A stretch of DNA of 61,955 nt, the filler included, from Collodictyon triciliatum (Eukaryota), in the NCBI GenBank assembly GCA_043381765.1. It is 4 parts of 4 records of this genome, joined end to end, with 100 filler letters (N's around TTAATTAATTAA, not from the genome) between each part and the next. Parts side by side here need not be neighbours in the genome. Positions count along the whole stretch, not along the records: positions 38,648 to 58,365 come from JBHJMP010000432.1; 3 more parts are not named here. One strand, written 5' to 3'. Numbering within the stretch: the stretch's first letter is position 1; every line of letters starts with the position of its first letter. The notes below the pieces were generated by a model. The model was not told where the DNA came from. It saw only the letters and a list, made by a program, of their open reading frames with translations, and made no database searches. A program made the position numbers and the translations under genes. Shown here piece by piece: positions 16,437 to 61,955 of the stretch.

Positions 16437-16544
<108 letters not shown>

Positions 16545-17602: not shown

Positions 17603-24162
<6,560 letters not shown>

Positions 24163-24334: not shown

Positions 24335-24423
<89 letters not shown>

Positions 24424-27982: not shown

Positions 27983-28934
27983 GCTTCGCTGCTGGGACCA
28001 TAAATCGCATTGGTTTTCGATTCTCAGCCATCCAGAAAATCCAGATAAAGAAAAGGAAAAAGGAAAGGATTTTTGAAGGATATTATCTCTACTGAAAGAG
28101 AAGAAAATGTTCAAGCACTAACCGAATTCATATTGATAAGATGACTAGCATGGGCAGAAAGGTAAATAATATGAACCAGTACAAGATTCAGTGAATCTAA
28201 CTTATACCAATAACAAGGCACATTGGTGTGATAGGCTCACAAGTCAATACAGCAATATGTTCTCCGAGCGAGAGCTTTTAGAGTACTAGGATAGAGCTTG
28301 TTTGATTATATGGAGACCCAGGCTCATACCCAATAGCTTTAATATGTACATGACCGTGCATTTAAAATTTTATATCATCTGTCACCACCCACCTCACGCA
28401 AAATGAAAATAAGAACGACAAATATTACCTTATCATGCGCACCAGAGCCTAGAAAGAAAAATATTGAGCAGGATAATTCGCATCATTATCTGCATTATGC
28501 AGGGCTTTATTGGTGCGGTTGATACTAGGAATCCCATATGGCAAGCCCTATCGTATTTTATGTGCGTTTGGTATTAAGTCCTTAAATCTTATATTCAGGT
28601 CTTTCATGGGCACAATGATACCAAGTGTAAAGCTCGGTAGCGTAGTTCTATTGAATCGACTTTTTTTTTTTTTTTTTTTAATAATTCTTTCAGTTTTTGC
28701 AAGATGACGGAAGAAATATTCATTTGCCATGACTGTAAAAAATAGAATAAAAAATCGGGGAATACCAGAAGAGAAGTGATGGCAAAATATGAGCTCAGAT
28801 ACAAGAGTTAAGCCAAAGAAAACATTACGCTGGTATGTCTTTTCTTCTCCTTTATTTTAGGAGAAGAAATGGTATGGTATCACTATAAATGTGCGATGAA
28901 AAAACAACTTAAATACAAAATAGGTAGCACACAC

Positions 28935-29942
28935 CGCGCTATGATTTTCTACAACCTGGAGAAAGCATACGACTATGTGAACCACGAAGCACTGGAAACC
29001 ATCCTACACAAAAGGGGCTTCTGCACCGGATTCACCGGTCTTATCAAGAAACTGCACGACAATGCAACAGCGAGGGTACTCACGGCACACGGACTCACGG
29101 ATGCAATCCAAAGACAGAGCAGGGTGTATCAAGGCTGCCCACTTGCACCACTGCTCTTCAACTTTGTTGCTGACTGTATTGCAAACCACTTCCGAAACGA
29201 AAACAAGGTGCGCAGCCAACTGCTACTTCAATATGCAGACGACACAGCATTCATCTTACGGTCTCCCGAAGGCGCCAAACTCGCCAACAAATGCATGCAA
29301 GAATACACACGAGCTATCGGTGGAAGATTCAACTACGACAAGACAGATGGAATTCATTTTGGGTTTCAGGATGGACTTACATTTCCAGGAAACATTGTGT
29401 GGAAGCCACCGTCACATCCACTCAAGTATCTTGGCATCATCTTCGGTCCACAATCGGATAGCAAATGGACAAGCCTAGTTGAGGACATCAAGCCGAAAAT
29501 ATCAGGGTGGAGCAACTTTCATCTCTCGGACGTGGGGAAGTAAGGTTGTGGAACCAAGTGATGCTGTCGACCCTTATCTACAACATAAAAGGCACTTTAT
29601 TAAACTTCAAGAGGCTGGAGGGACTGAAAGCCTCGAGGAATAAAGTCTCTTGAACAGCCTGTTGAAACACACCCACTTTCTTCGCTACTCTGACCCCAAA
29701 CGAAGAGAGATGTGGGAATGTGTCGTAAGATATCTCACACAGCATATCCAATCCGTGCTACCTACACAACCAATCAACCAGTTGGGTCGCCCACCTGACC
29801 AACTCACTATCACTGATTTCTTTCCGGTGGTAACTTCTTAGTAGCGTCATCTACTCGCGTTCGCTCTCAACCATACCCACCTACCCTGCCCATGGTATGG
29901 CTTAGCCCTGTTGCATTTTGAATTAAATAAAGAGAAAAAAAA
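28935..29942 (+). mobile_element. 5'-truncated, decayed non-LTR retrotransposon (L1/Tx1-like RT and 3' tail)
   Basis: NLEKAYDYVNH, QGCPLAPLLF, QYADD, LKYLGI, W..L...I...W...HLS..GK. A frameshift at ~29541 continues as RLWNQVMLSTLIY. Ends TTTTGAATTAAATAAAGAG-A8. Confidence 0.88.
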
Positions 29943-30070: not shown

Positions 30071-30108
30071 CACTTGAATCGAATGAAGGAAAAACAAAAA
30101 AAAAAAAA
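30071..30108 (+). mobile_element. Diverged copy of the same 3'-tail motif with a longer A tail; TSD not found
   Basis: CACTTGAATCGAATGAAGGAAAAAC-A13. Confidence 0.55.
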
Positions 30109-33200: not shown

Positions 33201-36200
33201 AATCCCTTTTCACACGAGATACATACAGATTGACCAGGTGAGGGATTATAAGTTCCAGTATCGCAAGCTTTACAGTTATCAACACTAGTTGATCCAATTA
33301 CGGGATTGTATGTTCCAGTTGGGCACAAATCGCAGGAATATTTTCCTTTGTAGGGATTGTACTCACCAAGGTTGCACAAAACACAATGATTCTGCCCAGT
33401 AGACGGATTGAATGTTCCGGGTGGACATTCTATACATGAAGAATTTCCTAAGTAGGGGTTATAGGATCCTTTCTCACATAATTTACAGTCATCAATACTT
33501 ATCGATCCGACATTAGGATTATATGTTCCCATTGAACAAGGATTGCAATACTTTTGTCCAGTATAAGGATTGTATGTTCCGACATTGCATGGCGTACAGT
33601 CTGTTAGATTTTTTGATCCTGTTCTCTGATTGTAAGTGCCCACAGGACATTTTTGGCACAAAGGTTGTCCAGCATTAGGATTATAGGTGCCTGGTTCACA
33701 AATGGTACAAGAATGGCCACCTGTTGAAGGATTATAAAATCCTAAATCGCATGGAATGCAAGACGATTGAGCAGTGTAGGGGTTATAAGTTCCAGGTTTG
33801 CATGGAATGCAATCGTTGGAACTCCTCGATCCATTTATTGGGTTATATGTTCCAATCGAACATGAAAGGCAATTTATTTGTCCTTGTGATGGGTTATACA
33901 TCCCTTGATTGCATGGTATGCACGAAGATTGACCAATATTTGGATTAATGGTCCCTTCTGGGCATGCATTACATGAAGATTGCCCGGGTGATGGATTATA
34001 TGTTCCAGGTAAACATGGGATGCATGAAATCGAGGAACTTGACCCAATTGATGGATTATATGTACCGCTCGCACATGGAGTACATGATGCTTGTCCAATC
34101 GATGGATTATATGTTCCTGATATACATGGGATACATGAAACAGAGGAAATTGACCCAATTGATGGATTATATGTGCCGCTCGCACATGGAGTACATGATG
34201 CTTGTCCAATAGATGGATTGTATGTTCCTGATATACATGGGATACATGAACTTGATGAATTTGAACCTATTGATGGATTATAAGTACCGCTAGCACAAGG
34301 ATAGCATGATGACTGACCTATTGAAGGATTATAATTCCCAGCGGTGCACGGAAAGCATGAACTTAAACTTATTGAGCCAGAGGAAGGATTATATGTACCT
34401 ATTGCACATGGAATGCATGAAGACTGACCTATTGAAGGATTATAATTCCCAGCGGTACATGGAAAGCATGAACTTAAACTCGTCGAACCATTGTAAGGAT
34501 TATAGGTACCAGCTGCACATAAACTGCAATAACTCTGACCTGCTAAAGGATTGTATGTACCAGATGGACATGAAAGGCATGATATGGGACTTATTGAACC
34601 AGTTGATGGATTATAAGTGCCAACAGAACATGATGTGCATGATGATTGTCCAATTAATGGATTGTAAGTCCCAGCGGTACATGGGATACACGAACTTAAA
34701 CTCGTTGAGCCTGTCGATGGATTAAATGTACCAGCATTACATAAAAGACATGATTTCTGACCATTAAAAGGGTTAAAAGATCCAGATGTGCAAGAAAGAC
34801 ACGAGCTTGCACTAACAGAAGCAAAAGAGGGATTAAAGGTTCCAGTAGTACAATTCGTGCAAATTGACTGCCCTATATTAGGATTATAGGTTCCAGGTGG
34901 ACATAAAAAACATGAAGTTACATTTGTTGATCCACTTGAAGGATTATATGTGCCAACAGAACATGGAACACAAGATGATTGCCCAATTAATGCATTGTAA
35001 GTACCAGCTGGACATGTCAAACATGATTTTGCACTAACTGACCCTATGTGCGGATTATATGTTCCAAAAGCGCAAGGTATACATGATGAACGCCCAGGAA
35101 AGTGATTATAAGATCCAGATTCACATGAAAAACATGAATTTATTGCGCTTGATCCCATTAATGGGTTGTAAGAACCAGCCGCACATAAAGTGCATGATGA
35201 TTGTCCCATAAAAGGATTATAGCTTCCAGTTGGACATAAAATGCATGAGCTAGAATTTGTTGCTCCTATAAACGCATTATACGTACCAGCAGAACATGGA
35301 ACACAAGATTGTTGTCCAGTAAGAGGGTTATAAGTTCCAACTGCACACAAAATGCAAGAACTTGAGCTTGTTGAACCATGTGAAGGGTTATATGTGCCGA
35401 CGTTACAGCCGGAACAACTTTTTTGACCAGTGAAAGGGTTGAAGGTGCCTGGGGGGCAAGAATCGCATGAAGATCGCCCCTGGGACGGATTAAACATTCC
35501 TGCTGGGCATAATAAACACATTATCTGCCCACTTAATGGATTATAAGTTCCTTCTGGACATGAGGAACAATAAAGACTACCATGGGAACTGTAACTTCCA
35601 CTAGGACATACGGAGCAAGACTTTGAATTTGAGTCATAAAAGTATCCTCCTGAACAAACTCCCCAAATTCTCACGGTATTATCGTCGCTGCCCGTGATTA
35701 ACTTTGAACCATCATGGGAAAATACAACACTATTTAGATCATCCAAGTGACCAATCAAAGTTTGAATTTGACCTCCACTAGGAAGATTCCAAATTTTTAC
35801 TGTGTTATCATCACTCCCGGATATCATTTTTGTGTTGTCTGGTGATATTGATAGACCTTTCACATCACTAGAATGGCCCACAAGGGTTGCGATTAAATTA
35901 GCGGTGAACGTGTCCCAAATTTTTATTGTTTTATCATTACTACCTGATGCAATAATCAATCCATTAGGTGATATTGCAATGACATTGACATCATCTGTAT
36001 GACTTGTTAAGGTATTAACCAAAGATTTAGTTGATATTCTCCAAATTTTTATAGTAAAGTCATCACCTCCTGATATAACTAGTGATCCATCAGGCGAAAA
36101 AATTACACTTTTGACATCATCATTATGTCCACTAAATGTGTAAATTAAGGATCCGGTTGAGAGACTAAATATTTTAACAGTATTATCGTCGCTTCCTGAT

Positions 36201-36631
36201 GCGATTAGTGAATCATCTGTACTAATGGCTACAGAATTTACAGCCCGATTATGAAACTCTAGGGATCTAACTAATGAACCAGTAGATATGTTCCATATTT
36301 TTATAGTCATATCTTCACTCCCAGAGACAATTTTGGTTCTATCCGAAGTGACAACAACACTTCTTACCCAGTTGGAATGGGCATTCCAGGATAGAATCAA
36401 TGTTCCTTCATAAAAATCCCACACCTTAATGGTTTTATCACTACTTCCAGAGACTATTTTTGAACCATCATTCAAAATTGCAACGCTCCAAACAGATCCT
36501 GTATGTCCATAGAGAGTATTCATCAAATTCTCTTGACCATCCACTCCAATAATTTCTTTGAGAAATATCAGCCCTGATGACAAACGGTGAGGAAGGGTTA
36601 AATTTATAAATTTAATTGAATTTTTTTTCAT
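30245..36631 (-). CDS. Intronless 2128-aa membrane protein: 7 WD40 repeats, long Cys-rich (GCC2/GCC3, ephrin-receptor-like) repeat array, multi-pass TM C-terminus
   Basis: Uninterrupted ORF. Seven xH...SGSxDxT[IV]K[IV]W repeats; dozens of CxxCxxGTYNP units; VAPGYWR...C...GALCSVC..GY juxtamembrane motif; roughly 8-10 hydrophobic segments by eye. Confidence 0.92.
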   Translation of the reverse strand: MKKNSIKFINLTLPHRLSSGLIFLKEIIGVDGQENLMNTLYGHTGSVWSVAILNDGSKIVSGSSDKTIKVWDFYEGTLILSWNAHSNWVRSVVVTSDRTKIVSGSEDMTIKIWNISTGSLVRSLEFHNRAVNSVAISTDDSLIASGSDDNTVKIFSLSTGSLIYTFSGHNDDVKSVIFSPDGSLVISGGDDFTIKIWRISTKSLVNTLTSHTDDVNVIAISPNGLIIASGSNDKTIKIWDTFTANLIATLVGHSSDVKGLSISPDNTKMISGSDDNTVKIWNLPSGGQIQTLIGHLDDLNSVVFSHDGSKLITGSDDNTVRIWGVCSGGYFYDSNSKSCSVCPSGSYSSHGSLYCSSCPEGTYNPLSGQIMCLLCPAGMFNPSQGRSSCDSCPPGTFNPFTGQKSCSGCNVGTYNPSHGSTSSSSCILCAVGTYNPLTGQQSCVPCSAGTYNAFIGATNSSSCILCPTGSYNPFMGQSSCTLCAAGSYNPLMGSSAINSCFSCESGSYNHFPGRSSCIPCAFGTYNPHIGSVSAKSCLTCPAGTYNALIGQSSCVPCSVGTYNPSSGSTNVTSCFLCPPGTYNPNIGQSICTNCTTGTFNPSFASVSASSCLSCTSGSFNPFNGQKSCLLCNAGTFNPSTGSTSLSSCIPCTAGTYNPLIGQSSCTSCSVGTYNPSTGSISPISCLSCPSGTYNPLAGQSYCSLCAAGTYNPYNGSTSLSSCFPCTAGNYNPSIGQSSCIPCAIGTYNPSSGSISLSSCFPCTAGNYNPSIGQSSCYPCASGTYNPSIGSNSSSSCIPCISGTYNPSIGQASCTPCASGTYNPSIGSISSVSCIPCISGTYNPSIGQASCTPCASGTYNPSIGSSSSISCIPCLPGTYNPSPGQSSCNACPEGTINPNIGQSSCIPCNQGMYNPSQGQINCLSCSIGTYNPINGSRSSNDCIPCKPGTYNPYTAQSSCIPCDLGFYNPSTGGHSCTICEPGTYNPNAGQPLCQKCPVGTYNQRTGSKNLTDCTPCNVGTYNPYTGQKYCNPCSMGTYNPNVGSISIDDCKLCEKGSYNPYLGNSSCIECPPGTFNPSTGQNHCVLCNLGEYNPYKGKYSCDLCPTGTYNPVIGSTSVDNCKACDTGTYNPSPGQSVCISCEKGFFNADKGKTYCYPCSPGTYSNYTGSSFCNECPPGKYNINSASRSADDCLPCDVGSFSSKNGSVICSMCFPGTYAEERGQKNCFNCDKGTYNPNYGAKNKKDCIYCPLGSYTDHENKSCISCPVGTFNNIIGSYSKISCKICNNGTFSSEKSSSCILCSPGYYQEEDAIKDPNSCLPCPIGTFNSISGTYGNSSCIVCPKGTYNDKKGKATCESCPSGTFSDKFGSFGSISCLSCIDGAYSSERSSSCILCSPGYYQKEDAIKDPNSCLPCPIGTFNSISGTYGNSSCIECPKGTYNDKKGNPSCLSCPSGTYNNKIGSYGLSFCLECPNGSYSSSGSELCNLCPTRSTTLKIGSTNISECLCIQTYISHGDICTCPPGKFEDGNRCVSCKIGSYKSNNGINLCTNCPNKFTTMYNGSINADDCICKPGFSFQYGECKCKPGWYENEGHCYKCIPNTYNDKYGQTLCKDCPPNSYTNSTGTISIDLCTCLSSTYIDTHSYECKACPIGFICDGSSVLEVAPGYWRAPSNSNNYIAYKCRNSEACIGGNNTCAIGYNGALCSVCESGYGKIGLLCLQCASQPVNLFLIIISIILPISFVSFMIEQSKQPKTGNIQILKSLSTHFQVLTYLANFDVNWSSEIISVMKIPAIFSFSISMDNYPLECQFKFTIYEKVFLTMFIPIILMLLIVLMIIIKKTWLIFKKELSKEELTYTFFWYEFRYSAMVMLFFVHPSITSSVAEIFPCQTLGNTSYLKADMSIMCDDENYLIYKNITLAFFSIYCLGGPLILLYKMVENSSSLRDHSSNAYSLMRFLVDGYTEKCHFWEVIMMLQKLIIVVLSIFFSTALQVYFGLWLLFFMIASTIYFKPFMSNVLKKSQIQSLMVLYFTLMLSLLFCYGDINQNTKFLLMGLVVFLNTAICTIFLSKAGPVVIKIILRKFSLILTFFWSCATDNILTQAILRMVNNRKQMDTQEMQNVSTFHSSSEYTI

Positions 36632-38547
36632 TCATTAGATTAAAATTATGCAAATAATATATAATTGTCATTATAAATCTGTAATATAACAAATTATACC
36701 AAAAAAGAGTCTAATAATACTCATCGATAGTTCATTCATGTTAGTTTTACACATGAGAGCAGTCAGTCACTAAATTAGCATTAATTAGTTATGTGTTATA
36801 TTTTTGATCGGTAAAAAATCTAACAGCGTCACTTAAATAAAAAACTTATAGAGCAGTTTGGCTTAGTTGAGGAAGGGATAAGTTCTATTTATATTTTAAA
36901 CCTTGATATCGACATTTTATATAAAATTGGATTCTGAAACATGATTTTTTTGGTTTCATTAGATAAAATATGGATATATGAATGTCAATTTATGTTTTTC
37001 TTTTAAAAAGTGAATGACTGTAAACTGGTAATTGAGGAAATTACAAAATATGATTATAAATAATTATTCGCAAATATTATGATTAAAATAGTTCCTTTTG
37101 CTGAAATTTAGCATGATATTATATTAATTAGATATATGAGTAGAAAGTTATTCTGTCGAGCAAAAATTTTAAACATAGAGCACATGAAAAATTGTAGCAC
37201 TATTTCATCATCTGAGAATATAAGATAAATATGTTACATATTTTTCCCTCTCTGAACCATTCAAAACCATAATTTAAGAGATTCAAAGAGTCTGTATATA
37301 TTTAATGAATCGTCATTATACAAAATATTTAAGAGTGCATTTATACCAATTTGAAAACTAGCGTTTAAAACTCAAATAATTATTATAAACCTTAAATTCA
37401 ACCCAATTGTGTAAAAAAAGATTATTATATCTAACTAGTGAAAAAATTAAGAAATCAGCCACCATATTAAAATTCTGTAGTAATATTTCGAAAAGAAAAG
37501 AATCTATTGCAATATATTTTGCACAGGAAACATCCTAAGAAGCAACAAAAAATCACCCAATTTTAAATTAGAATATTAGACATTGGCCGATTATTAAACC
37601 TTAAATTAGATTTTAAAAGTTTGGGTTACATAATAGCAATACCCGACTCGCTTCACTACTTTATAATGAAAGTAGACTTAAAAATTTGAAGTGTCGAAGA
37701 AGAGATAACCTATACTTGAATGAAATGAAGAGGAGAAATATAGGTAGACATAAGACTCACGCAATCAATAGGGTTCGAGGAGGGGGTTTCAAGTTCGGGT
37801 TATGTTTCGATTCATAAGGGTACTCGGAGGACCAGATACGTGTATTTACAATCCTATTGCTAGTCGGTGTTTTGCTAAAATTTAAATATTTTTATTGCAC
37901 TTATAGTATTTTGAATTTTTAGGGATTACAAACACATACGTAAAAGTATCGCGCTCGATTGCATAAGATTGCAAAATCAATTGGGAAAAAATAATGAATG
38001 GATTCTTGTCTTGCAAGAAATGCATTTTGTCAACCACGAAGAGTCGGACAGTCTTCCTAAGATGTGGTTTGTGATAATATGAGGAAACCAAATTTTACTA
38101 CACCCAGTAAAATAGCCGATAAGTTGGCATCTCCAACTTGCATATTTTTTTATTGATATCATTCTCTATTTATTAACTAAAAATTATTGAACAAAATCAG
38201 CATAGTCATTAATCACATGAATTCCCCGATAGCTATTACATTTTTAATTGAAATCTGTATTAATTTTCCTTATTCACGACAGACTTAGCTGTTGGCGCTC
38301 GTGCCAACAATCTTTTTTCCCACCACCAAGCAAGTATTCCGAGATAAAAAGAAAAAGTGATGGCGGATGTGCCATCAGGAGAGTATGGAGATGGGGAATA
38401 GAAAGAGAAAAGAGGATGAAAAGGAATAGGAAAGGAAGTAAAGACCCTGGGCTTGATAAGAGGCCCAGGGATTCCTTTCAGGATAGGACTTGTGGTGAAG
38501 TCCTTGGGAGAGGGAAAGTAGCGGGCTTGATTATGTTTAGAGGGGAG

Positions 38548-38647: not shown

Positions 38648-38860
38648 ACACTCTTTCACACTCTTTCACACTCTTTCACACTCTTTCACACTCTTTCACA
38701 CTCTTTCACACTCTTTCACACTCTTTCACACTCTTTCACACTCTTTACACTTTCTACACTTTTTCACACACTTTCTACACTCTTTCACACTCTTTACACT
38801 CTTTTTACACTTTTTTACACTCTTCACACCCTTTCACTCTTTCACCCTTTCACTCTTTCA
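38648..38860. repeat. (ACACTCTTTC)n intronic minisatellite
   Basis: Direct reading; decays toward the CAG acceptor at 38865. Confidence 0.93.
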
Positions 38861-38865
38861 CACAG

Positions 38866-39199
38866 GAGCATCAAGGGGCGATTGCAGGGGCGACATCGGG
38901 ATTCATGATTCTCTCCTTCTTTTTCTTCTTCCGACCAATGTTCAACACTCTGGAAGAGGAAAACAGGTTAGTTTCTATCTTTTTGTGGGGGTTCATGTCT
39001 TCCAGTATTTATCACAGGTTTCATATTATATTATGAAATTCGGAAAATGGGTAAAGAAGAAAAGAAAAGGTTGAATCGACCCTTTGAACATTTCTCTCTC
39101 CTCGCCAGACAAACGCGCGCGATGCTTTTGATGATGCCTGACGAAGTTGTTGCAAACACGCCCGAGATTGAAAAGTTTTTGATCAAGACAGATTTATAA
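38866..39199 (+). CDS. Last two exons of a membrane protein with a TmcB/TmcC (PAS-domain family)-like C-terminus
   Basis: GFMILSFFFFFRPMFNTLEEENR|QTRAMLLMMPDEVVANTPEIEKFL; TM followed by the E...TRxMLLMxP pattern recalled from that family. Confidence 0.6.
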
Positions 39200-39626
39200 T
39201 TCTTTGCCTAGTCGATTCTTCGCTCTCTTCCGCTCTTCTTTTTCCCAACGCCGCTTGAGCCCAAATAAAAGCAGAACGCCTAATAGATACCGACTTGCGT
39301 GACTTGTTCCCTCTGTCAACGAATATTGTCCAACTGGGGGATTAACGGTATGCAAATGCGGAAATTACATGATCCAATATTTACGGCCGCCTTGCTGCGC
39401 GAAAAGCAACACAGCCACACAACCCGATTGCAGCAGAGGAAGCGCATATCTTTGTTGGCGCGCACAGTCAACTCAGCGTCCCCGTTGTTTTTTTCAACTC
39501 TTGTGCGCGAGAGGGTGAATAATCGTCGCCATTACTTTAGTAGTTGGCGCAGGGTGACAGAATAGCAAAAGCGAGGAAGAGGAAGAGGAAGAGGAAGAGG
39601 AAGAGGAAGAAGAAGAGGAAGCGGAA

Positions 39627-41188
39627 ATGGAGCAGGATCGAACACTGGAGCTTCTTGGGCGGTTAGAGAGAGTGCAACAAGAGGAGGCGCATCACAGGCT
39701 GATCCAGCAGAAGAAGATCGACGGATGCCGCATGGGGATGAGCTACGAGGACTGGCGCAAGAGCATAATGGCCGCTCACCTCAAGCCTGTGCAGGTTGCT
39801 TTACACTCCCACAATCTTCATATCGTTGTTTTTTGGTTTTCAATTCCAAGAGAGAAGAAAAAAAAAACATTAATAAATAGAATATTGAGTTGCTTTGATT
39901 ATACCTTTATGCTCCTTCAATTTTTTTTGGAGCAATCGAACCTTATTTTCCAGCTGCTTCATCGCTTAATCCAGCATATATTTTCCTTTAATGATGATTG
40001 AGTCCTATTAATCACGGCCATAATGACTCCTAAGCAGTTTTTTCTTATTTTCCAAAGGGTATCAAATTCGCAAATGAATCATCGTCTGCCGGTTTCCCAA
40101 CGATGTCCACCACAAAGGCCACAAGGTATGATGGCCAGTGGCGGTGAACTCCTTGAAGTCATACGAAATAAAATATAATAAGGAGTATGAATTTTACAAA
40201 TCCAAAGTAATATCCCAATTAGGCTTTCAACCCTTTTAATGCAATAAATCCTCCATTTCAGCGGCATGCATGATGACTTCGAAGCGAGCAATGTCAGGCT
40301 GTTGGCTGCAACTTCTTCTGCAACCCCAGCTATGAAACAGGTAGATTTATCCAAACGCGCGCCCACAAATTCGATGGAATTCAACAAAACATGGAGAGCT
40401 TTGTCTTCAGAGGGGCAGAGAATAGCGTTAGTGTTCCTTTCAAAAAAATTGATAGTTTTCTGGCAAATGCAATGTAGTTTTCACTATATATATAAACTCA
40501 TTTATTATGCCAATAGTTATTTGAAGCTTATTCCGCCGTCATCTTTATCTGTAAGTCGTGTCAACAATCATTTAAGAGTGTACGTAAATCAAATACAGCT
40601 GCCTTAAAGCAATTTGCATTTCGATTGCATAGTCTATTTTCAAGGCCGAGATGGACGCAAACACAATATCATCAATTTCTCAGGCTTTTCATAGTTGGAT
40701 TACACAAGAAAATGAAAAGAAAATACATATTACAACTATTGGCCAAGGAGAAGAATCCACTTCTAGTGCAAATCATCAAGTATCACAGGAGAGTTCCGAC
40801 TTTTTTGCAGTCTTCTTTGTTCTTAACTTTCTGGAAGCTGTAACTCGCATCAATCGCTTTTCGTTGAATATAAATTTTCTAAATGCGAAACAAAAACAAG
40901 TTCTTACCAATTTGTTTGCAAGTCTGCAATCAGGTCTGTCATTTCAAACATATATGGTTTGTTCTCAAAATATTGAAGTTGTAATGAATGTATGAAATAC
41001 CCGCAATAAAAGGAGGGAAACGACACACACAAGATTGAACATAATTTAAACAACCCTCATAATCTCCTTTTGACTTTCACGAACTGACAAACTCAGTACT
41101 CATATCCACAGCCTTAGATAAACAGTCAGACCTTGGCGAAGATGTGTCGCAAAGTTTTGAGAACATCAGAAGTGCTTTCAAAGTCTAG
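39627..41188 (+). CDS. CCDC103: Dynein attachment factor CCDC103-like (N-terminal attachment domain plus RPAP3_C domain), 6 exons
   Basis: SYEDWRKSIMAAHLKP; PTNSMEFNKTWR...YLKLIPP...IFKAEMD...RFSLNINFL; TAG 41186-41188. Confidence 0.8.
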
Positions 41189-41696
41189 ATGATTTCACTT
41201 GAATAAACAAATGATATGTTTAATGTAGATATAGCTCTTTGTCGCTTTTCAAGATACAGTTTTATTTGAAAATCATGGAAATTGTATGAAATGGTCGGTA
41301 CTTGCGTACACACAGTTGAACAAGATTTTTTTCCTGGTGGGCTCTGGGACAGTTTCTTTTTATTATTATTTGTAAATTTTACACGCTCTCTCGATCAGAT
41401 AACGCCACTGACTTACGAGTATATGGATCTTTTTCCAGCACAATCACCCATAATAAAAATTAATCTTTTTTTTTATATGTTTGATGGATTACAAGATGGA
41501 GATAATACATGTTTCTTAAATAAGCCCCATCAAAAAGCCATCCAAGCAAAGTAAAATAAAAAAAAACGATAAGATAGCGTCTCAAGATTTATTTTATTGG
41601 GTTGAACTCTCCAGAGGGAAGTCGGTAAGATATAGGCGTGAATGCAAGATAAACTGTCATTGTAAAATGCGAAAGAGAATATCATCCCAGACAGAG

Positions 41697-41754
41697 AATA
41701 GCGCCTCGATATTTTTTTTCCTTTATTCGATTCAAAGTAATGGCGCCTCGATAT
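41697..41754 (-). mobile_element. Micro-element copy (insert 41713-41738) with 16-bp TSD, just downstream of the kinase stop codon
   Basis: Minus strand: ATATCGAGGCGCCATT [ACTTTGAATCGAATAAAGGAAAAAAA] ATATCGAGGCGCTATT (15/16 match). Confidence 0.85.
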
Positions 41755-41769
41755 GAAGACGATTTCCAC

Positions 41770-43865
41770 TCACGCATGACCAGCCTCTTCAATGATTTTC
41801 ATGGCAGCCCGAACCTGGAATGGTTTGAGGGTAGGAATCGACTCACGCAATTCTTTTTCTGAAATCTCAGCCAGCTCCGCCCCATTGAGTGAATTCTCTA
41901 GACAAAAACTAATCAGCAAGGGGTTAGCTGCTCTTTTCTCTAGGTAGCTTACAAGCTCGGCTGTGTTCATGTCCTTGACCCGCTTTGATACTGCATTCGG
42001 TTTCAAGACTGTAGGGTTCCCTGTTACGTTCAGCATTTGTTCTATATTGTCAGCCTTGATTCTCGCCTCCGTATCTCTTACCCAACATTTTCCAATCAAT
42101 TCACTTAGATTTTCCGGACATGACTCTGGAATGGGTAGGTTACCTTTTGATAGCTCAAAGCCTATTTCCCTCTCATTCTTGCCTTCAAATGGGTACTCTC
42201 CAGTAACCATCGACCACAGTATTAGACCGTAAGCATACACATCGCTGGGAAGCCCCAAACTTTTCCCATAATCATACGCTTCTGGGGCAGACCAGTTCCG
42301 TGAACCTTTGAAACCAGTGACGGAGTTGACAGATGCACCGCTCTTAGAAAGCCCGAAGTCGGAAAGCTTTGCTACACCACCAACCAAGAGAACATTTTCG
42401 GTCTTCAGATCACGGTGCTGAATGGGCGGTGTCCGCGTGTGCAAGTAGGAAAGACCTCGAATTATATGGATTGCGAAAGTAATAGTATCTGAGGCATTCA
42501 GGGGGCCATTTTTTTGTATCAACGATTTTAAGTCGCCTCCGTCTGCATACTCCATAATTAATATCAAGTCTCTCCCTCTATAACCGAAGTCATATAATGA
42601 GATGATATTTTCATGTACTAGCTTGAGCATCATTTCTCCTTCCACCTCCGGATCGATACATCCTGGACGCCCTTTATGGAGAGCAGCATCACCGATTTTC
42701 TTCACGGCAAAGACGCCAGCTCTAAGTGTAACTCTAAATACGAGTCCGAATCCCCCCTTTCCGATGACATTTGACGGTACTTCAAATTCTTCGGACAGTA
42801 TATCTGCATATCTACTGGTTTCTAGGTTGCGATAGGCTATAGTATATTTAATATCAAAAACATATTTGATGGATGAAAGTGCTTGCATAACGACATGAAA
42901 GGAGGGAACACAATTACGTTGCTGAAGCTTTGACGATGTGAGAGAAGGCATTGAAGTGGATGATTGTCCGGCTTTCCTATTCTCCTATAGATATATCATT
43001 TAAATATCAAATACCAGCGGCTAATTAGCCTCGGCAGTCTCCTAGGCTTGTTGAGATTTACTTACCACGTCATAGAGGGTAAGCTTCTTCAGGGATTCAG
43101 AGCGGGTGTTTCTCCATGCAACTCCAGCCGCAGGTTCAGGTTTGTGATGATTGTTCCAGCACGGCAAAGACTTGATTCCTACAGGTGCTCTTTTAATGCT
43201 GGTGCTTCCATCTGGGTCCTCAATGAGAAAGTCTGACAAGTTTCTCAACAAGGTAATTTCCGAAGGAAGCTCTTCAATCTAAAGAAACGGTGTGTGTAAG
43301 GAAAGAAAAAGGATTCGCATCGACCATACTATTGTTCACCTACACGATTGTTTCTGATACTCAGCGCTGTCAAAAGCGTCAATGCTGAGACCCAGGGCGG
43401 AATGACCGATATCTGGTTGTGTCTGATGTTCAGGGCGTTTAATCTGGTCAGAGACGAGATGCCCTCTGCGATCACAGAGATCCTGTTTTCATCCAGCCGA
43501 AGAAAGGTCAGGCTGGTCAGACAGGATATCGCATTCGGTATGAACGAAATCAGATTCCCGGACATGTTCAACTGGACCAGCAACGTGAGACAAGATATCT
43601 CCTCGGGGATGGCCTTGATTTTGTTTCCATCGATGCGGAGGAAAGTCAGGCTGGCCAGGCACGAAATCCACGGCGGGAGTTCGGCAATGCCATTCAAGGG
43701 CAGACTCAAGTGGCACAGTTTCACGAGAATCTTTGTGCCCGACGGCACACACGTCAGGAGCTTCTGGTTGGAAACCTCAAGCGCCGTGCAAGCTGATATG
43801 CCTCTTTCGGGTGGCCAATAAGTTGCTCTTAGGCGTTGGAAAACCTCCAGTTGGGCCCCGTCCAT
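41770..43865 (-). CDS. LRR - TKL-type protein kinase - SAM-like protein; one gene joining ORFs 43329-43865, 43042-43251 and 41770-42951
   Basis: In-frame GT-AG joins NNR|IEELP and LYDV|ENRK. LRRs LxxLxxLxxxxNxI; kinase GKGGFG, AVKK, HRDLKTEN, DFG, WSAPE, SDVYAYG; C-terminal ENSLNGAELAEISEKELRE SAM-like segment. Confidence 0.88.
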
Positions 43866-44449
43866 TTTGTGCTTAGTCCTGTTCAGTGATATGTCGTAAG
43901 ACTAGGCCGAACTGGTGATTGCAGGTGAAGTAGGAAGGCGGAGTCGCAGCTTGTATGTTGATTTCCCGTTGATTCAAACATTCGTTGCATGTAGTTGAAG
44001 TGTCATGAGCTGATGCACAGTCGCGCAGTCCATATGTACGCCATCTGACAGCCACGCTTTCAGACAGGGCTATTTTTTCCGATTTGGCAGTGGAGAAATT
44101 AATTTATATAGCTTTGTGGCTGTGCTCGTCCTGTTTGCACTTGTGGGTTGCTATCTATTTAATGTCGAGTTCGAGCATATATGGGCATAGTTCACTTTCT
44201 TTCCACAAACGCTTTTGGTATTAGATAATAAAAATGGGTTCAGCGCGATTGTTCGCCCATACTACCGAATTTGAATCTGGATAAAAGGTAAATGGAATCT
44301 CAAATTAATAATGTATATGCACAATATCAGATAATCACAGCCATCTGGTTTATGCATTATCACCTTATATTGCTATTCTAATTTTCATATATATTCCATA
44401 TTTGTACATTTTGTATTGCAGTCATCCTAAGCCCATAAAAGGCAACAAA

Positions 44450-44570
44450 AATACATAACACATAAAAAACACATAAAAAACACATAAAAAACACATAAAA
44501 AACACATAAAAAACACATAAAAAACACATAAAAAACACATAAAAAACACATAAAAACACATAAAAAAACA
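44450..44570. repeat. (AAAAAACACAT)n minisatellite in the divergent intergenic region
   Basis: Direct reading. Confidence 0.92.
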
Positions 44571-44612
44571 TACAGAAAGCACATCAAAACACTTTAATAC
44601 AGGAATCCGAAA

Positions 44613-47600
44613 ATGGGACAAGTTGGCTCGATTCTGAAAGAGCAGATCATCGATGACTCCACCGAAGACGGCCGCTGGGACGCCCTCGATCCTACCGCGT
44701 TGATGCTTCCCGGTTCCTGGTCGCTGTTTGACCCGATCTCCCTCTCACTGCAGATAGATGTCGCGTCAGCAAGCCAAGTACCCTCTTTCTGCTTATCCTT
44801 CCTTTTCTCTTTTATTTTTTGTTTTTGTTTTTGTTTTTGTTTTTGTTTTTGTTTTTGTTTTTGTTTTTGTTTTTGTTTTTGTTTTTGTTTTTGTTTTTGT
44901 TTTCCTTGCACAATTCTTACACAAACTCATCCAGGGGGATAGTAAATCACTGGGTGCTGGTGCAGATATGAAAACGCTGGAATCAATCATATGCGCCTTC
45001 GATCAGGATGAAAATGAGATTCAGTTCTTCAGCACGAGTGATAAGGCTTCCACAAAGTCCTCATTCACACTTGGTGGCCAGTTTCAAAGGTTGATTTGCA
45101 ACACATACTTTTAAAAAATGAAATAGGAATAAAAAAATAAATAATGACACACACAAAACTATTTTTCTTGACATATTCACAAATTAATTGAGTGCATGAT
45201 GGTGCAAATAGGGACTTCATGTTCAAAATTCTAAAAAAGATCAGAGATGATTTCCAAAAGTCTTCAACCAACAACGAGAATGGGGTTTACTCATTTTTGC
45301 AGCGAATGAGAATTCTGTATCGCTGGCATCTCTCAAAAGAGCGTAAGGCCTCCTCAGAACAGGTTATAGTCTATTCAAAAATATCATTTCAAAATAGCTC
45401 CCCCTTGTTTTATTTTATTTTAATACAATAAAACCTTTCATCTTTTATCATTACTATCAACAACCAATCACTTTTCTGGATTTAGTTATTTTTATTAGCA
45501 TTTTAATTAAAAAAACCAAAATATGTCCCAGACGAAAGAGGGAGACGGGTCCACCAAAAATACCAATCCTGAGACCAGCCAAAGTCCATCTGAGAAATCC
45601 ATCCAATCAAATCAATTACTGATGAACATGGTTGTCCTGCTTCTTGACCACTCTGTGGAGAATGACCCATCTCTTATTCCAATTGTGTTGCGCTCCACCG
45701 CTGAAATATTCCAGCAACCAAAGATATTGAGCATCGATGAAAACGGTTCATCTTTGGCTGCCCTCAGCAACTGGATAATGCAAACATCATCGTCGTTGTT
45801 AAATGCACCCAGCCAGGTGACTTGCATTTCATATCTTCTCAAGTTGATATATATATATATACATACAAAACGAAAACACACGCATTTGAAGACAAAATTT
45901 AGATTGAAATCAACGTCCGTTAACATGTCATATTCAAACGCAAACAGGAAAGTATGGAAGTAATTAACTTGGCCTTTACATCCATCTGTGGCCTCTTTAT
46001 TGCGACGGGGAATCTCTCCACAGGACTGTCATTCATTCGTTACTTTATTACTAACGAAAAAGCCATCACCGCCATCGACTCCAACATGAAACTAAGCTTT
46101 GCAGCTCTTTCGTCATACAAACATATTCCCTCAGTATTTAGGAATCGAAAATCAATTGGTATGCATAAAAAAGTTTCTCTCTGCCTCATGTCTCTATATT
46201 TATATGCAATTCGACTTGCCCTACTTAATTGTGGTGATATATTCTGCACTCTGTATCGTTTCAATATGGCTTCTACGATTCCTCAAAGAGGCGTAATTTG
46301 TATTTTGGTCCCTTTCTGAATCATTATTTCATTTAGGAACGATGCCTATACTTTTCAGCGCTTTAAATCCGCCGCAGAGCAAGCCTGGACGAAAGAGTAA
46401 AAGTCTTGGATGTGCATCCGATGGGACTTACATATATTATCTGGAAACTGACAGAATCCTTAAATTCGGGCTTGGGCATGGAGTATAGCATCTACCACAT
46501 ATATCATATTTTTTTTTTCATACCACATCGAAGATTTGAAATGTACACCACTTTAGTTTTGTAATTCCTTCCGTAATGTCACTCATTTTTTAAAATAATT
46601 TATTTATATGAACCGCTCATAATTCTTCTATAACGAATTCCAGGGAACTACGATAGGAGAAGTCGCCCACTGGGTTCCTTTCGCATCACCAGGGGATGAT
46701 GAAAACACGACAATTTCATTCGTATACCACAAACAGAGAGTTTACATGCACACCCGTGGCTCAGAGTTGATACGTGTTTTCGATGCAAGCAATCTGACAG
46801 TTAATACTGATTAATTTGGGCAGATTTCTCATTACACCAGACACACTATACGAAATTACTTTCCCTTAGCTTCGTGTTAAATTCTTGAAGTTATTTTTTA
46901 TAGCGTGCATATTCACTACCTCCATAACAGATGTTAAGATGTGCTTTCTTTTTTTAACTATCATCAAGGAATTGGAACCTATTTCGGGTATCTTTCCATC
47001 AGAAAGACGAACACGTTTATTTTCTGACGGTGAGGAGTTATATGCTGTCCATGAGGATGCGGAAGGAAATGCTATTATGCAAAGCCTGGATATAACCTCA
47101 TCCCTCAACATAAAAAAATCGTATTTTTTAATATAAATTAGTCACTCTTTACCCATAGCCACTCTTTTTTTTTTTTTTGGACAACAAATATTCAAGTGTA
47201 AGCCACACTCAGACTTTTTTGTTTGATGTGATTAAGAATCTCCCTCGGCCAAGCGCGATGCAAATTTGAAAAGAAAAACATGTCATGCCCGTTCTGTTCG
47301 GTAAGTTTTTTTTTTTAATTTGCTCTGTATTTTAAATCGACATAATCAGCTGATACAATGAATGATCATATATTCTTAAGTCGTAGTTTTTTTTTTTTAA
47401 TCAAATGGACACTAGGTACTTATCACAAAAGCCTGGTCATGTTCTTCCCCTTCACTATCCCTTTGCACCGACTGTTACCTTGAATACCGCGCAATCTCGG
47501 TGAGAATCTTCTAAAATAGTCTACATGAAACCATTTCAACATATGTGTGCTGTAAAGCTAGCCACTATATAGTGTTTTGATGAGCAAATACACTATGAAA

Positions 47601-49210
47601 AATATTTGCAGTCTCAAAAGCGGTCCAACTCTACATTCGAATATAAACCAGTCACAAGTGATATGTTTGGTAAGACCTTTTACTTTTTCAATCTTTCGGT
47701 TTGCCAAATTGTCATCGTAAGACATATCATTATATGGGCTTCCTTCATGTCTCCTCTTCATCCCATCCCTATTTTGAGTGAAATCTGAAAGATAATCTAG
47801 ACTGTCATGCATGACTATTGCTCGCTAATGCTCTTATCTTGTAGGAGATAGTGCTGAGGATAAATCATCTATCATTGACGGCACATTCTTTTCGAATGGA
47901 ACATATGTATTCTGCATCGCCCCCACACTCAAATCCTTGCCCAATTCTTCAATAGTTCGTATCTATGACTCTATGAATGGGGCTCTTCTTGCAGACTATT
48001 ACCTGAGCGATTTTGATGCTGGTAAACTCCTATCTCCTTGAATTCATCACGCTCTGACTCAGGCTCAACCAACTGATCCCGGATTTCTTGCTCCAAAATC
48101 TAATTTGTAGATGTATATCGGTTATTCTACTATCCTCTACCTAACCATGTCCATCCTCTATGGGTTTTGGATTTTATTCGAAATGTGCTGCCTACTAATT
48201 TGTTTCATGTAGGAGTTTTTGCGTGGTATGACGCTGGACTAGATGCATCATACTTCTTTCACCCAGCAACAAGGTTGATCTCTTTTGTTGAACATTCTAC
48301 TGTTCGCTGGTCAAGGAGACGTTCCAAAGGATCACCAGAAGAATGTGTAGTGCTTCAGTCATACCTAGAGGCTTCGCAGCACTTCAATTCTGAAATACTA
48401 AAGTCCCCCGATAGACTTCCTAATCTTACGATAGCTACTTTCCTTCTTTCTCAATTGGAGCGGCTCTCATTTCAAAGCATGGGTTTGATGGAACGAGTTA
48501 ACCCTATTCTCAAAAAGCAGCTTGAAGCAGCAAACATGTTTTTTCCTTTTGTCTTGGAGTTATGCCCAAAAACATTTGAGTGCATTTATGACATCCTATC
48601 GCAGCTTCACAAGGCATTGAACACTGAAAAACGAGCTAGGTTTGTCAGAGTTGAATTCAATATGGACAGACATTGCAGAACGAAAAATATATTACGAAAA
48701 ATATCACGAAAATAAATATATAAATAAATATGATGTTGAGTCATCCATTTTCTATAACCCAATTGAACGACAGACTAAAGAAAACAATCAACATTAACAG
48801 CTTTGAAGTTGTATACTGCATGAAATCAATACTGGGGGTCTTAACGATGCAACTATCGAAATTATCGCCTTTTGAGCATCTTCCCCTAGACATTGCGCCA
48901 TTCTTCCAATCTACCTCTTTTGAAACTACCTCAGCTGACGCATCAGGTACTTTTTTTCTTCTTGAATTTCACAATGTCTGAATCCTTTTCTGTTCCAACG
49001 TTCGTCATATCTTGTTATATGGTACCGCTCAACCGCAAACATTGAATAATCATGAGCAAAAAGTAACTTCTTTGAATCGAATAAAGGAAAAAAATGAGCA
49101 AAAAGTAACTTGATTGAAAACATTACTTTCTCTAGGTTCTGCATTCTTGACATGGACCCCAGACCAAGTTGCCACATGGATTGGAGATACTCTGGGCTTT
49201 CCTCAATACA
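44613..49210 (+). CDS. 5' part of a giant HECTD4/MYCBP2-like protein; truncated at a gap
   Basis: In-frame exons from MGQVGS; ASDGTYIYY...ILKFGLGHG|GTTIG propeller motif recalled from HECTD4/MYCBP2; CPFC...CTDC Cys cluster; SAM-like start WTPDQVATWIGDTLGFPQY. Confidence 0.6.
49052..49111 (+). mobile_element. Micro-element copy (insert 49070-49093) with perfect 18-bp TSD, intronic
   Basis: ATGAGCAAAAAGTAACTT [CTTTGAATCGAATAAAGGAAAAAA] ATGAGCAAAAAGTAACTT. Confidence 0.9.
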
Positions 49211-49248
49211 TGTTTTTTTTAGTGCCATCAAATTCTTATGACCTACCT

Positions 49249-49327
<79 letters not shown>

Positions 49328-49832: not shown

Positions 49833-50785
49833 GGACGCATCCGCGGTGTTTGTCGAGGAAAGCATTCTGACACCTATAAGTGCATGTTAAATATAGCGGC
49901 GTGTGAAAGTGGCAGTGTTAATTAGATGTGGTGGAGGCGCCAGAATAGTCCTTCGAACGCACAACTAATCATTAGAAATATGAGTTATATACTTTGGCAC
50001 CGAAGGAAGAGGTTTTTTTCAAAATATGCATAAACCATCCCTTTTGTTTTTTATTTGATCCTTTTTTTTTTTATCTTATTTGATATTTTGTGTTCTTTTT
50101 TATGTTCTTTTTTATGTTCTTTTTTATGTTCTTTTTTATGTTCTTTTTTATGTTCTTTTTTATGTTCTTTTTTATGTTCTTTTTTATGTTCTTTTTTATG
50201 TTCTGCAACCCAGCCCCAAACAAAGCAACACATCAGCGCATTCTTTCTGAGAACGGTGTGAATTAGGCTTCAGGGCGTTGGCGTTGCCATTTGGACGCAC
50301 GAGAATCCATACAGTTCACCTGCCCAAACAGGGGCAAAGGAGATGTAAGAAAGCATTTGGAGAACTCAGAGACATGGAGACGCGTGACAACGACTCAAAC
50401 GCACAGAACGTCAGGCTTCTGCACATGCGGAACTTCTCAGAGTGTCAGTCAAAAAACTGTTTTTATCGTGCTGTTGATTAAACGAAGAAAAAAAAACCGT
50501 GATGAAGCGAGATCGCCAGCAAAAACTATTCAATTTATGACCCCACGCAGATCTGAACTGCGATTGTCAGATTCAGAGTCTGAAGTGCTAACCGTTACAC
50601 CATGGAGCCGCTCTCCTCTGACAAGAAAAATAAATATATATAATATGTAGATTATCAAACGGATTCCTTTTTGGTCTTTCTCTTTGTTTACCATGGTCAA
50701 TGCAGCGGCAAGAAGAAGCACCGATTGAAAAAACGAGTTTGCACAGAGAGCAGAGACGAATCGACCCACAAAGCTGCAGGAGGCG

Positions 50786-60955: not shown

Positions 60956-61184
60956 TCACCAAATTTATATGCTTGGATTTAGTCTTTGGAAGGGCAGTGG
61001 GAAAAGTTATAGGAGAAGAGAGTTGTCAGATGCACAAAACGCACGTCCAAGTGCCCACTATCTATCACTCCTCCTCTTCATCTTTTTTTTTTTCATGGTC
61101 ATGATTCCTCTTTACCTTGCCTTCTTCTTTGTATTTTCGGGAGGAGGAGAAAAGGAAGAAAGAACATCATAATGACGGGTCGCT

Positions 61185-61837
61185 CTACCACTCATCACTC
61201 TCATCGTCGCTGGCAGCAGACTGCGCATAGGGATTCCGGGGTGGCGGAGGCGGCGGAGGCGGCGGGGCGGCAGAGACCGGGGGTGCTCTTGCAGAGGAGC
61301 GGACGGAGAATGTCGGGGAGGCTGCGCGGGACTCACGGCGGGACGGCGGCTGCGATGGCCACTGCGATGGCGGTTGGGTGGGCGGCTGCGACGGCCACTG
61401 CGATGGCGGCTGCGTGGGCGGCTGTGTGGGCGGCTGTGTGGGCCAATGGGACTGCGGCTGTGTGGGCACCGCGGACTCGAGCGCAAAGTTTGCAGGCGGG
61501 GGCGGGGGCGGCGGTGGTGGGGCGGATGAAGCGGCAGGTGGTGGGGGCGGTGGGGGCGGCGGTGGGGCGGATGTGGCGGATGTGGGCGGCGGGGGCGGTG
61601 CACTTGCAGCTTTGCCTCCTGCGGGGCTCGGGGCGTCTGGGGTTCTGCGATGGTGGGGTGAGTGTGGTTTGCATAGGGGTTGGGTTGCGTTGGGTTGCGT
61701 TGGGGTGTCTTACAGAAGAAGGTCGGGATTCAGCCCCTCGGCTTCCATCAGGACGCGGACGCGCATTTCGGGTACTCCGACTTTGACCATTTTGAAGAAT
61801 TTCTGATACAGTGGGTCGTCCTTGACAAGAAGGACGT
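61185..61837 (-). CDS. WASHC3: Last two exons of WASH complex subunit 3 (CCDC53)-like protein with Pro-rich extension
   Basis: VKDDPLYQKFFKMVKVGVPEMRVRVLMEAEGLNPDLL matches the CCDC53 KDPxY..[YF].KMV.VGVP....M..EGLxPDLL motif; then TPDAPSP, poly-Pro, ...SDDESDEW*. Confidence 0.8.
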
Positions 61838-61854
61838 CTATGTTGATGTGGGTT

Positions 61855-61955
61855 GTGATGTGATGTGATGTGATGTGATGTGATGTGATGTGATGTGATG
61901 TGATGTGATGTGATGTGATGTGATGTGATGTGTTGTGATGTGTTGTGATGTGATG
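61855..61955. repeat. (GATGT)n intronic microsatellite
   Basis: Direct reading. Confidence 0.95.

What the first reader, a model, noticed from the sequence alone, without database searches (positions are those of the whole stretch)
49052..49111. Candidate ultra-short (~25-nt) retroposon family with long AT-initiated target-site duplications
Seen: CTTTGAATCGAATAAAGGAAAAAA (24 nt) sits between perfect 18-bp direct repeats. The same insert, each time with different flanking repeats, occurs at 20244, 22592 and 41713-41738 (minus strand), i.e. on two scaffolds. All four start at C(TTTGAA) within 1 nt, end in a short A tail, and have 15-18-bp duplications whose first bases are AT. Established: an A tail plus a variable-length TSD is the signature of target-primed reverse transcription by APE-type LINEs; LINE 5' truncation is normally variable and SINEs are normally much longer. 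Inference: a discrete ~25-nt template (small RNA, processed LINE 3' end, or fixed RT abort site) is being inserted repeatedly. Four copies in ~60 kb suggests a high copy number. I cannot confirm novelty without a literature or Repbase search.
Basis: partly seen in the sequence, partly recalled or inferred. Interest (0 to 1): 0.88.

Follow-up and report, generated by a model that had tools for sequence, protein, structure and literature searches.

The report
Tail-only mini copies of a LINE
The tiny repeated insert is the last 18-19 bases plus short A tail of a LINE retrotransposon of this microbial eukaryote, pasted in repeatedly with clean target duplications; what is unusual is that all the copies stop at the same base.

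Summary
Four copies of CTTTGAATCGAATAAAGG plus a 6-7 A tail lie between 15-18 bp direct repeats that all start with AT. A fifth, decayed copy is at 30073-30108.

The source element is in the window. A 5'-truncated LINE with a reverse transcriptase domain ends at 29916-29942 in a diverged copy of the same 18 bases plus A8. A homologous LINE 3' end on a metagenome contig (L001) ends in exactly these 18 bases plus A10. The nearest full-length relatives have L1-type architecture: APE endonuclease, RT and zf-RVT.

So this is not an independent retroposon or SINE. [quoted passage not shown] Of six LINE-derived insertions in the window, five start within about 2 nt of one position. None is 8-17 nt or 20-1000 nt long.

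Why the 5' end is fixed is unresolved: either a processed ~25-nt 3' RNA fragment or a fixed early exit of the RT. No stalling structure is predicted. No genome, small-RNA data or empty sites were available.

Verdict: a new variant of a known kind, of moderate interest.

The parts
49052..49111 (+). Copy c4. Duplication 49052-49069, insert 49070-49093 (18 nt of LINE end plus A6), duplication 49094-49111. The duplications match 18/18.
20228..20284 (+). Copy c1. Duplication 20228-20243, insert 20244-20268 (18 nt plus A7; the preceding A is ambiguous between LINE and target), duplication 20269-20284 (14/16). It lies in a putative intron of a + strand gene, about 40 nt before an AG followed by an open frame.
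22577..22630 (+). Copy c2. Duplication 22577-22591, insert 22592-22615 (one change in the 18 nt and one in the tail), duplication 22616-22630 (13/15). It lies in a putative intron of the same + strand gene.
41697..41754 (-). Copy c3. Duplication 41754-41739, insert 41738-41713 (19 nt of LINE end plus A7), duplication 41712-41697 (15/16 in the window, 16/16 in runs X1 and X2). It lies in the 3' UTR of the LRR-kinase gene, 31 nt after the stop codon at 41770-41772, in the sense orientation.
30073..30108 (+). Fifth short copy, decayed. It has 17 nt of the motif with changes, then A5-C-A13. No duplication is recognisable. The sequence upstream is unlike the LINE 3' UTR.
28860..29942 (+). Old 5'-truncated LINE copy, with approximate 5' limit. 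It holds an RT-domain ORF (28812-29543), frameshifted remains, and a 3' UTR homologous to L001 from 29625. No target duplication was found.
29916..29942 (+). 3' terminus of that LINE copy. It is a diverged version of the 18-nt motif followed by A8, and homology to L001 stops right after it.

Best explanation
The inserts are tail-only retrocopies of an L1-like LINE (APE endonuclease, RT, zf-RVT architecture) that lives in this eukaryote's genome.

Proposed mechanism:
1. The LINE's endonuclease nicks the bottom strand at 5'-AT|R.
2. The freed 3' end primes on the short A run of the LINE RNA.
3. Reverse transcription copies only the last 18-19 nt.
4. The cDNA end is joined to a top-strand break 15-18 bp away. 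This gives the duplication.

What is shown: the inserts are identical to the LINE 3' terminus, they have an A tail and duplications, and they share a fixed 5' end in the window.

What is inferred: the enzyme, the nick site, and the reason for the fixed end.

For the fixed end I favour, at roughly 45%, that the RT runs off the 5' end of a processed 3'-terminal RNA fragment of about 25 nt. I give roughly 40% to a fixed early template exit on the full-length RNA.
For: Link to the LINE:
- The window's RT-bearing LINE fragment (RVT_1, E 1.9e-17) ends in a diverged copy of the motif plus A8.
- Metagenome contig L001 carries a homologous LINE end: 81.5% identity over 325 nt to the window copy by blastn, 86% mean column identity in the alignment. 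It has a zf-RVT ORF.
- L001 ends in exactly the 18 nt, preceded by A and followed by A10. After that the two sequences diverge.
- c1 and c3 match L001 over 27 nt at 100%, and c4 over 25 nt at 100%.
- All 4 nearest full-length relatives (34-41% identity in the RT) carry PF03372 and RVT_1. 3 of 4 carry zf-RVT.

Discreteness:
- blastn of 1.16 kb of LINE end against the window finds 1 long copy and 5 copies of 25-29 nt. The remaining hits are A-rich noise with E >= 0.06.
- Of 16 sites holding the last 5 nt plus A4, 3 hold the full 18 nt. The other 13 match the motif for at most 7 nt and have flank repeats of at most 6 nt.

For an RNA-end template:
- The duplications are discrete (15-18 bp), there is no target loss, and there is no microhomology at the 5' junction (by reading).
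- In human L1 experiments this pattern marks insertions in which the RT reached the template's 5' end. 5'-truncated insertions show broader duplications and microhomology (passages of PMC11702581).
- No stable fold is predicted in or just upstream of the 18 nt. The z-scores are -0.82 and -0.34, and the 24-mer has a minimum free energy of 0.
Against: - Only 4-5 short copies from one 62-kb window support the fixed end.
- No full-length source element was seen, so its endonuclease type rests on relatives at 34-41% identity.
- No RNA of about 25 nt has been observed. It is also unclear how a LINE protein would load such a fragment, given cis preference.
- The human-L1 junction rule may not transfer to this element, and n = 4.
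- No empty-site allele was seen. The insertion events are therefore inferred from structure only.
- Copies shorter than about 8 nt plus tail cannot be detected, so the short side of the length distribution is only partly sampled.
Confidence: 0.8

Rival explanations
1. Same LINE and same target-primed reverse transcription, but the template is the full-length LINE RNA. The RT leaves it at a fixed point 18-19 nt in. Possible causes are a failed switch from initiation to elongation, or a protein bound just upstream acting as a template boundary. The short cDNA is then joined to the other target end.
For: - Every piece of evidence linking the inserts to the LINE applies equally.
- LINE proteins prefer the RNA that encoded them (established knowledge, recalled). 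This favours full-length RNA as the bound template.
- The retained A tails are uniform at 6-7 nt, which fits a measured, enzyme-defined product.
Against: - No predicted RNA structure at or upstream of the boundary that could stall the RT.
- The junctions look like template-end junctions and not like truncation junctions, by the human L1 criteria. That is a transfer across families with n = 4.
Confidence: 0.35
2. These are ordinary, randomly 5'-truncated LINE copies. The shared 5' end in this window is a sampling accident or a detection bias.
For: - Severe 5' truncation is the rule for LINEs, and truncated tails have been mistaken for SINEs before (passages of PMC2887409).
- Only one window was examined.
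- Copies shorter than about 8 nt cannot be recognised.
Against: - Four independent insertions, each with different duplications, start at the same base within 1 nt. A fifth is within about 2 nt.
- No copy in the window is 8-17 nt or 20-1000 nt long, although blastn would have found the longer ones.
Confidence: 0.08
3. This is an independent micro-SINE or small-RNA gene product that merely shares its sequence with the LINE tail and is transcribed on its own.
For: - SINEs commonly borrow LINE tails (established knowledge, recalled).
- All 4 copies sit in the sense orientation inside transcribed regions.
Against: - The unit has nothing besides the LINE's own last 18-19 nt. It has no head and no room for a pol III promoter.
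- No Rfam or tRNA hit lies on any copy.
- No shared upstream sequence that could act as a promoter.
Confidence: 0.04
4. This is a DNA-level event: filler DNA copied from a LINE copy during double-strand-break repair, or a DNA transposon/MITE footprint.
For: Templated filler insertions of this size exist in other systems (recalled).
Against: - Filler insertion does not make 15-18 bp duplications, nor a constant orientation with the A run abutting the downstream repeat.
- There are no terminal inverted repeats.
- The duplication length varies (15, 16, 16, 18), unlike the fixed length left by transposases.
Confidence: 0.03

Closest known systems
5'-truncated LINE tails, e.g. RTE-clade 3' ends that were first filed as SINEs or as microsatellite-flanking families (PMC2887409, passages read)
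   Same: Only the 3' end of an RT-encoding element is left between target duplications. Many dead tails come from a few source elements, and they are easily mistaken for a separate short retroposon.
   Different: Those tails keep part of the RT coding region and vary in length. Here the copies are 24-26 nt and share one 5' end.
Human L1-mediated insertions of a bare poly(T)/poly(A) stretch, or of severely truncated elements (PMC3219598, one passage read)
   Same: An extreme outcome of target-primed reverse transcription, in which almost nothing but the tail is inserted.
   Different: Those are single sporadic events of undefined origin. They do not form a recurrent class with a fixed non-A segment.
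Full-length processed-pseudogene and L1 insertions in induced human cells (PMC11702581, passages read)
   Same: Discrete 12-18 bp duplications and 5' junctions without microhomology, interpreted there as the RT reaching the template's 5' end.
   Different: Those templates are capped mRNAs of kilobases, and the junctions often carry an extra G. No extra base is seen here, and the presumed template is about 25 nt.
Very short SINEs with LINE-dependent mobilisation, e.g. Platy-1 of about 100 bp (PMC4864456, abstract start seen in the listing)
   Same: A short non-coding unit with an A tail, mobilised by LINE proteins.
   Different: SINEs have their own promoter-bearing head and are about four times longer or more. 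This unit is nothing but the LINE tail.

Membership tests
Insertion made by an APE-type (L1-like) non-LTR retrotransposon through target-primed reverse transcription | A-rich 3' tail directly abutting the downstream target duplication | tested here: met
   A6-A7 in c1, c3 and c4, and A-T-A4 in c2
Insertion made by an APE-type (L1-like) non-LTR retrotransposon through target-primed reverse transcription | Target-site duplications whose length varies between events (about 7-20 bp) | tested here: met
   15, 16, 16 and 18 bp, with 13/15 to 18/18 identity. c3 is 16/16 in runs X1 and X2
Insertion made by an APE-type (L1-like) non-LTR retrotransposon through target-primed reverse transcription | Insert colinear with the 3' end of an element that encodes a reverse transcriptase | tested here: met
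   RVT_1 in the window copy and zf-RVT in L001. Both end in the motif plus an A run
Insertion made by an APE-type (L1-like) non-LTR retrotransposon through target-primed reverse transcription | Source element encodes an apurinic/apyrimidinic-type endonuclease | tested here: inconclusive
   Both copies in hand lack the 5' part. All 4 nearest full-length relatives (34-41% identity in the RT) have PF03372. A search for long relatives of the L001 ORF found none
Insertion made by an APE-type (L1-like) non-LTR retrotransposon through target-primed reverse transcription | Presence/absence polymorphism or an empty site in a relative | tested here: inconclusive
   No 'left out' row at either site. c3 is present in X1 and X2, and cover at c4 is thin
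SINE | Head derived from tRNA, 7SL or 5S RNA with an internal pol III promoter | tested here: not met
   The unit is 18-19 nt plus tail. The only Rfam/ARAGORN hit in the window is a tRNA-Gln at 50538-50609, which lies on no copy
SINE | 3' tail shared with a partner LINE | tested here: met
   Identical to the L001 LINE end
Ordinary 5'-truncated LINE copies | Broad, continuous distribution of 5' ends | tested here: not met
   Within the window, 5 of 6 LINE-derived insertions start within about 2 nt of one position. None is 8-17 nt or 20-1000 nt long. The genome-wide test was not possible
Ordinary 5'-truncated LINE copies | Microhomology at 5' junctions and broad duplication or deletion sizes (human L1 criterion) | tested here: not met
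   0-1 nt of possible overlap at the 4 junctions, and duplications of 15-18 bp (by reading). n = 4, and the criterion comes from another family
MITE / DNA transposon / introner-like element | Terminal inverted repeats and a fixed duplication length | tested here: not met
   The insert's ends are not inverted copies of each other, and the duplication length varies from 15 to 18 bp

The most novel reading that the evidence does not exclude
A processed, small-RNA-sized (24-26 nt) 3'-terminal fragment of LINE RNA is itself a working template for target-primed reverse transcription. That would make this by far the shortest retroposed unit known, possibly present in thousands of copies that repeat finders miss. 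It would also define the minimal RNA that this LINE's reverse transcriptase can recognise and copy.
Probability: 0.3. Interest if true: 0.75.

Novelty: new variant of a known kind. Interest (0 to 1): 0.45.

Why it matters
If the fixed 5' end holds genome-wide, this LINE offers a natural read-out of where target-primed reverse transcription ends when it ends early, or of a minimal RNA that the enzyme accepts. Either is directly testable with one protein and one short RNA.

There are practical consequences too:
- Inserts of 24-26 nt escape standard repeat annotation, yet each adds an AATAAA and an A run. All four lie in the sense orientation, one in a 3' UTR and three in what appear to be introns.
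- They also give clean presence/absence markers.

If the fixed end does not hold genome-wide, these are ordinary dead LINE tails.

Tried and rejected
- **Whole genome.** None is held, so no census was possible.
- **Earlier notes of this scan.** There were none for this genome or for the LINE sequence.
- **Metagenome scan for the 22-mer.** It gave 1 contig, L001, which proved useful.
- **Viral contigs.** 0 hits.
- **Prokaryote genome contigs.** 5 hits, all inside one conserved Flavobacteriia coding region and unrelated to the flanks here. This is a coincidence of a coding 21-mer.
- **Reads.**
I then laid 38648-49320.
  - No contig lacked the insert at c3.
  - Around c4 the cover was too thin to say anything.
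  - A joint in run X7 from 47278 to 49084, with 4 extra letters, falls on a motif-like A-rich stretch. I regard it as a repeat artefact.
  - Contigs of X1 and X2 stop at about 41712, the A run of c3. Contig ends cannot show RNA ends, so I make no claim of polyadenylation there.
- **Hairpin idea for the 18 nt.** Rejected, since no stable fold is predicted. No stalling structure lies upstream either.
- **Known ribozyme or RNA family in the LINE end.** Only two sub-threshold lncRNA chance hits.
- **RNA-target pairing as the rule for site choice.** Only the downstream repeat of c1 is complementary to the tail (P about 0.00075 among 20,000 background words). The 6 other repeat versions give P >= 0.4.
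- **Target duplication for the 1.1-kb LINE copy and for the fifth short copy.** None found.
- **Weak motif-like site at 36621-36645 (minus strand).** 84% identity over 25 nt, E 0.21, so probably chance.
- **Taxonomy from the kinase via the protein atlas.** Uninformative.
- **Long relatives of the L001 ORF.** None found.
- **Literature.**
  - The 17-mer is in no held paper.
  - Word searches turned up no description of a recurrent LINE tail class of about 25 nt.
  - Subscription journals and Repbase were not searchable, and supplements were closed.

Full report
**Observation.** The finding is accurate.

- At 49052-49111 an 18-bp word is repeated perfectly on both sides of a 24-nt insert: CTTTGAATCGAATAAAGG followed by A6.
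- The same insert, with different flanking repeats, lies at 20244-20268 (repeats 14/16), 22592-22615 (repeats 13/15, two changes in the insert) and 41738-41713 on the minus strand (repeats 15/16).
- The 17-mer with up to 2 mismatches occurs 5 times, against 0.03 expected. None of 100 shuffles reached 5.
- The fifth hit, at 30073-30108, is a decayed copy with a longer A-rich tail and no recognisable duplication.
- A scan for 15-nt direct repeats (up to 2 mismatches) spaced 22-29 nt gave 31 clusters. As I read the printed sequences, 26 are simple repeats, 4 are these copies and 1 is another unique site. The block-shuffle control in that call (3-8 clusters) is driven by low-complexity blocks and is not a clean null.
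- All four duplications start with AT and are preceded by a pyrimidine. This implies a bottom-strand nick at 5'-AT|R.

**What it is.**

- The window is eukaryotic draft sequence. It has 12 N runs and GT..AG introns that RNA contigs skip.
- It holds a 5'-truncated non-LTR retrotransposon. An ORF at 28812-29543 matches RVT_1 (E 1.9e-17). About 400 nt downstream, at 29916-29942, the element ends in a diverged version of the same 18 nt followed by A8.
- A scan of metagenome contigs for the motif returned one contig, L001. Its minus strand carries a LINE end homologous to window 29625-29942: 81.5% identity over 325 nt by blastn, 86% mean column identity in the alignment.
- L001 has an ORF with a zf-RVT domain. 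It ends in the exact 18 nt, preceded by A and followed by A10, after which the two sequences diverge.
- The inserts are therefore the last 18-19 nt plus tail of this LINE family. c1 and c3 match L001 over 27 nt at 100%, and c4 over 25 nt at 100%.
- A full search of protein representatives gave same-family fragments (up to 92% identity) and full-length relatives at 34-41% identity. All 4 of the latter that I examined have an APE-type endonuclease domain and RVT_1, and 3 of 4 have zf-RVT. That is the L1-type layout.
- The endonuclease of the actual source element was not seen. Both copies in hand lack the 5' part, and a search for long relatives of the L001 ORF found none.

**The unusual part.**

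- blastn of 1.16 kb of LINE end against the whole window finds one long copy and five copies of 25-29 nt. The remaining hits are A-rich noise.
- Of 16 sites with the last 5 nt plus A4, 3 carry all 18 nt. The other 13 match the motif for at most 7 nt and have no flank repeat longer than 6 nt. That pattern misses c2 and the fifth copy because of their base changes.
- So within this window nothing is 8-17 nt or 20-1000 nt long.
- The 5' end is C of CTTTG in c2 and c4. It is the preceding A, which the LINE also has, in c3. It is ambiguous between the two in c1.
- This is not the smooth truncation spectrum expected of LINEs. However, it rests on 4-5 events in 62 kb, and no genome was available for a census.

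**Mechanism.** The marks of target-primed reverse transcription are all there: an A tail against the downstream repeat, duplications of variable length, and a consistent nick site. Why copying ends at -18/-19 is open.

- I tested the obvious idea of a hairpin. The 24-mer does not fold (minimum free energy 0), and the last 140-150 nt of both LINE ends fold no better than shuffles (z -0.82 and -0.34).
- No Rfam family, ribozymes included, matches.
- The 5' junctions show no microhomology, and the duplications are tight at 15-18 bp.
- In induced human L1 systems this combination marks insertions where the RT reached the 5' end of its template. 5'-truncated insertions show broad duplication sizes, deletions and microhomology (passages of PMC11702581).
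- By that analogy I slightly favour a processed 3'-terminal RNA fragment of about 25 nt as the template (about 45%). I give about 40% to a fixed early exit of the RT from full-length RNA.
- The analogy crosses LINE families and n is 4, so this is an inference and not a result.

**Context of the copies.**

- c3 lies in the 3' UTR of an LRR-kinase gene (stop codon at 41770-41772), in the sense orientation.
- RNA-type contigs of two coded runs cover c3. They read A at 41742, which makes its duplication 16/16 there.
- c1 and c2 lie in what appear to be introns of a + strand gene, and c4 lies before an AG followed by an open frame. All are in the sense orientation (inference from ORFs).
- Four of four in the sense orientation is not significant.
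- No empty-site allele was seen. Cover at c4 was too thin to judge.

**An oddity.** The downstream repeat of c1 contains an 11-nt perfect reverse complement of the insert's first bases. The upstream repeat has 9 of these 11 and follows a T8 run.

- Only this one of 7 repeat versions stands out against 20,000 background words (P about 0.00075). RNA-target pairing is therefore not the general rule.
- The target may have been an older antisense copy. I could not settle this.

**Comparison with what is known.**

- Truncated LINE tails between duplications, mistaken for SINEs, are classical (passages of PMC2887409).
- Bare poly(T) insertions, interpreted as severely truncated Alu or L1, are on record (one passage of PMC3219598).
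- The shortest primate SINE cited in my searches is about 100 bp (abstract start of PMC4864456).
- I found no description of a recurrent LINE tail class of about 25 nt with one fixed 5' end. Repbase, subscription journals and supplements were out of reach, so this absence is weak.

**Verdict.** The feature is real and LINE-derived. It is not a new retroposon family. It is a new variant of a known kind because of its discrete, extremely short form. Interest is moderate.

Noticed in passing
window 20220-20284: The downstream target repeat of c1 holds an 11-nt perfect reverse complement of the start of the insert. The upstream repeat has 9/11 and is preceded by T8. The target may have been an older antisense tail copy, nicked at its motif/A-run junction.
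   Followed up: partly
window 41575-41772: RNA-type contigs of runs X1 and X2 stop at about 41712, the A run of c3, in the kinase gene's 3' UTR. Another X1 contig carries a 23-T loose end at 41575, which suggests the regular poly(A) site. Whether c3's AATAAA/A run is used as a poly(A) site, or only catches oligo-dT priming, is open.
   Followed up: no
window 30245-36631 (-): A 2128-aa uninterrupted ORF with N-terminal WD40 repeats, dozens of Ephrin_rec_like cysteine repeats and a hydrophobic C-terminal region.
   Followed up: partly
window 41770-43901 (-): A gene with leucine-rich repeats followed by a protein kinase domain. Introns are confirmed by RNA contigs at 42983-43065 and 43278-43344.
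   Followed up: partly
window 50538-50609 (-): tRNA-Gln (CTG). It is the only Rfam or ARAGORN hit in the window.
   Followed up: no
window, many sites (e.g. 4450-5364, 12780-13025, 13688-13961, 24333-24389, 49206-49327): Very many microsatellites and long homopolymer runs, several of which end in N gaps. These repeats probably broke the assembly.
   Followed up: no
window 15000-17700 and 61000-61955: GC-rich islands (0.44 in the 15-20 kb bin against about 0.36 elsewhere), with long overlapping ORFs rich in Pro, Gly and Arg on both strands.
   Followed up: no
L002-L006: The 21-mer of the motif also occurs inside one conserved coding region of five Flavobacteriia genomes. The flanks are unrelated, so this is a coincidence.
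   Followed up: yes
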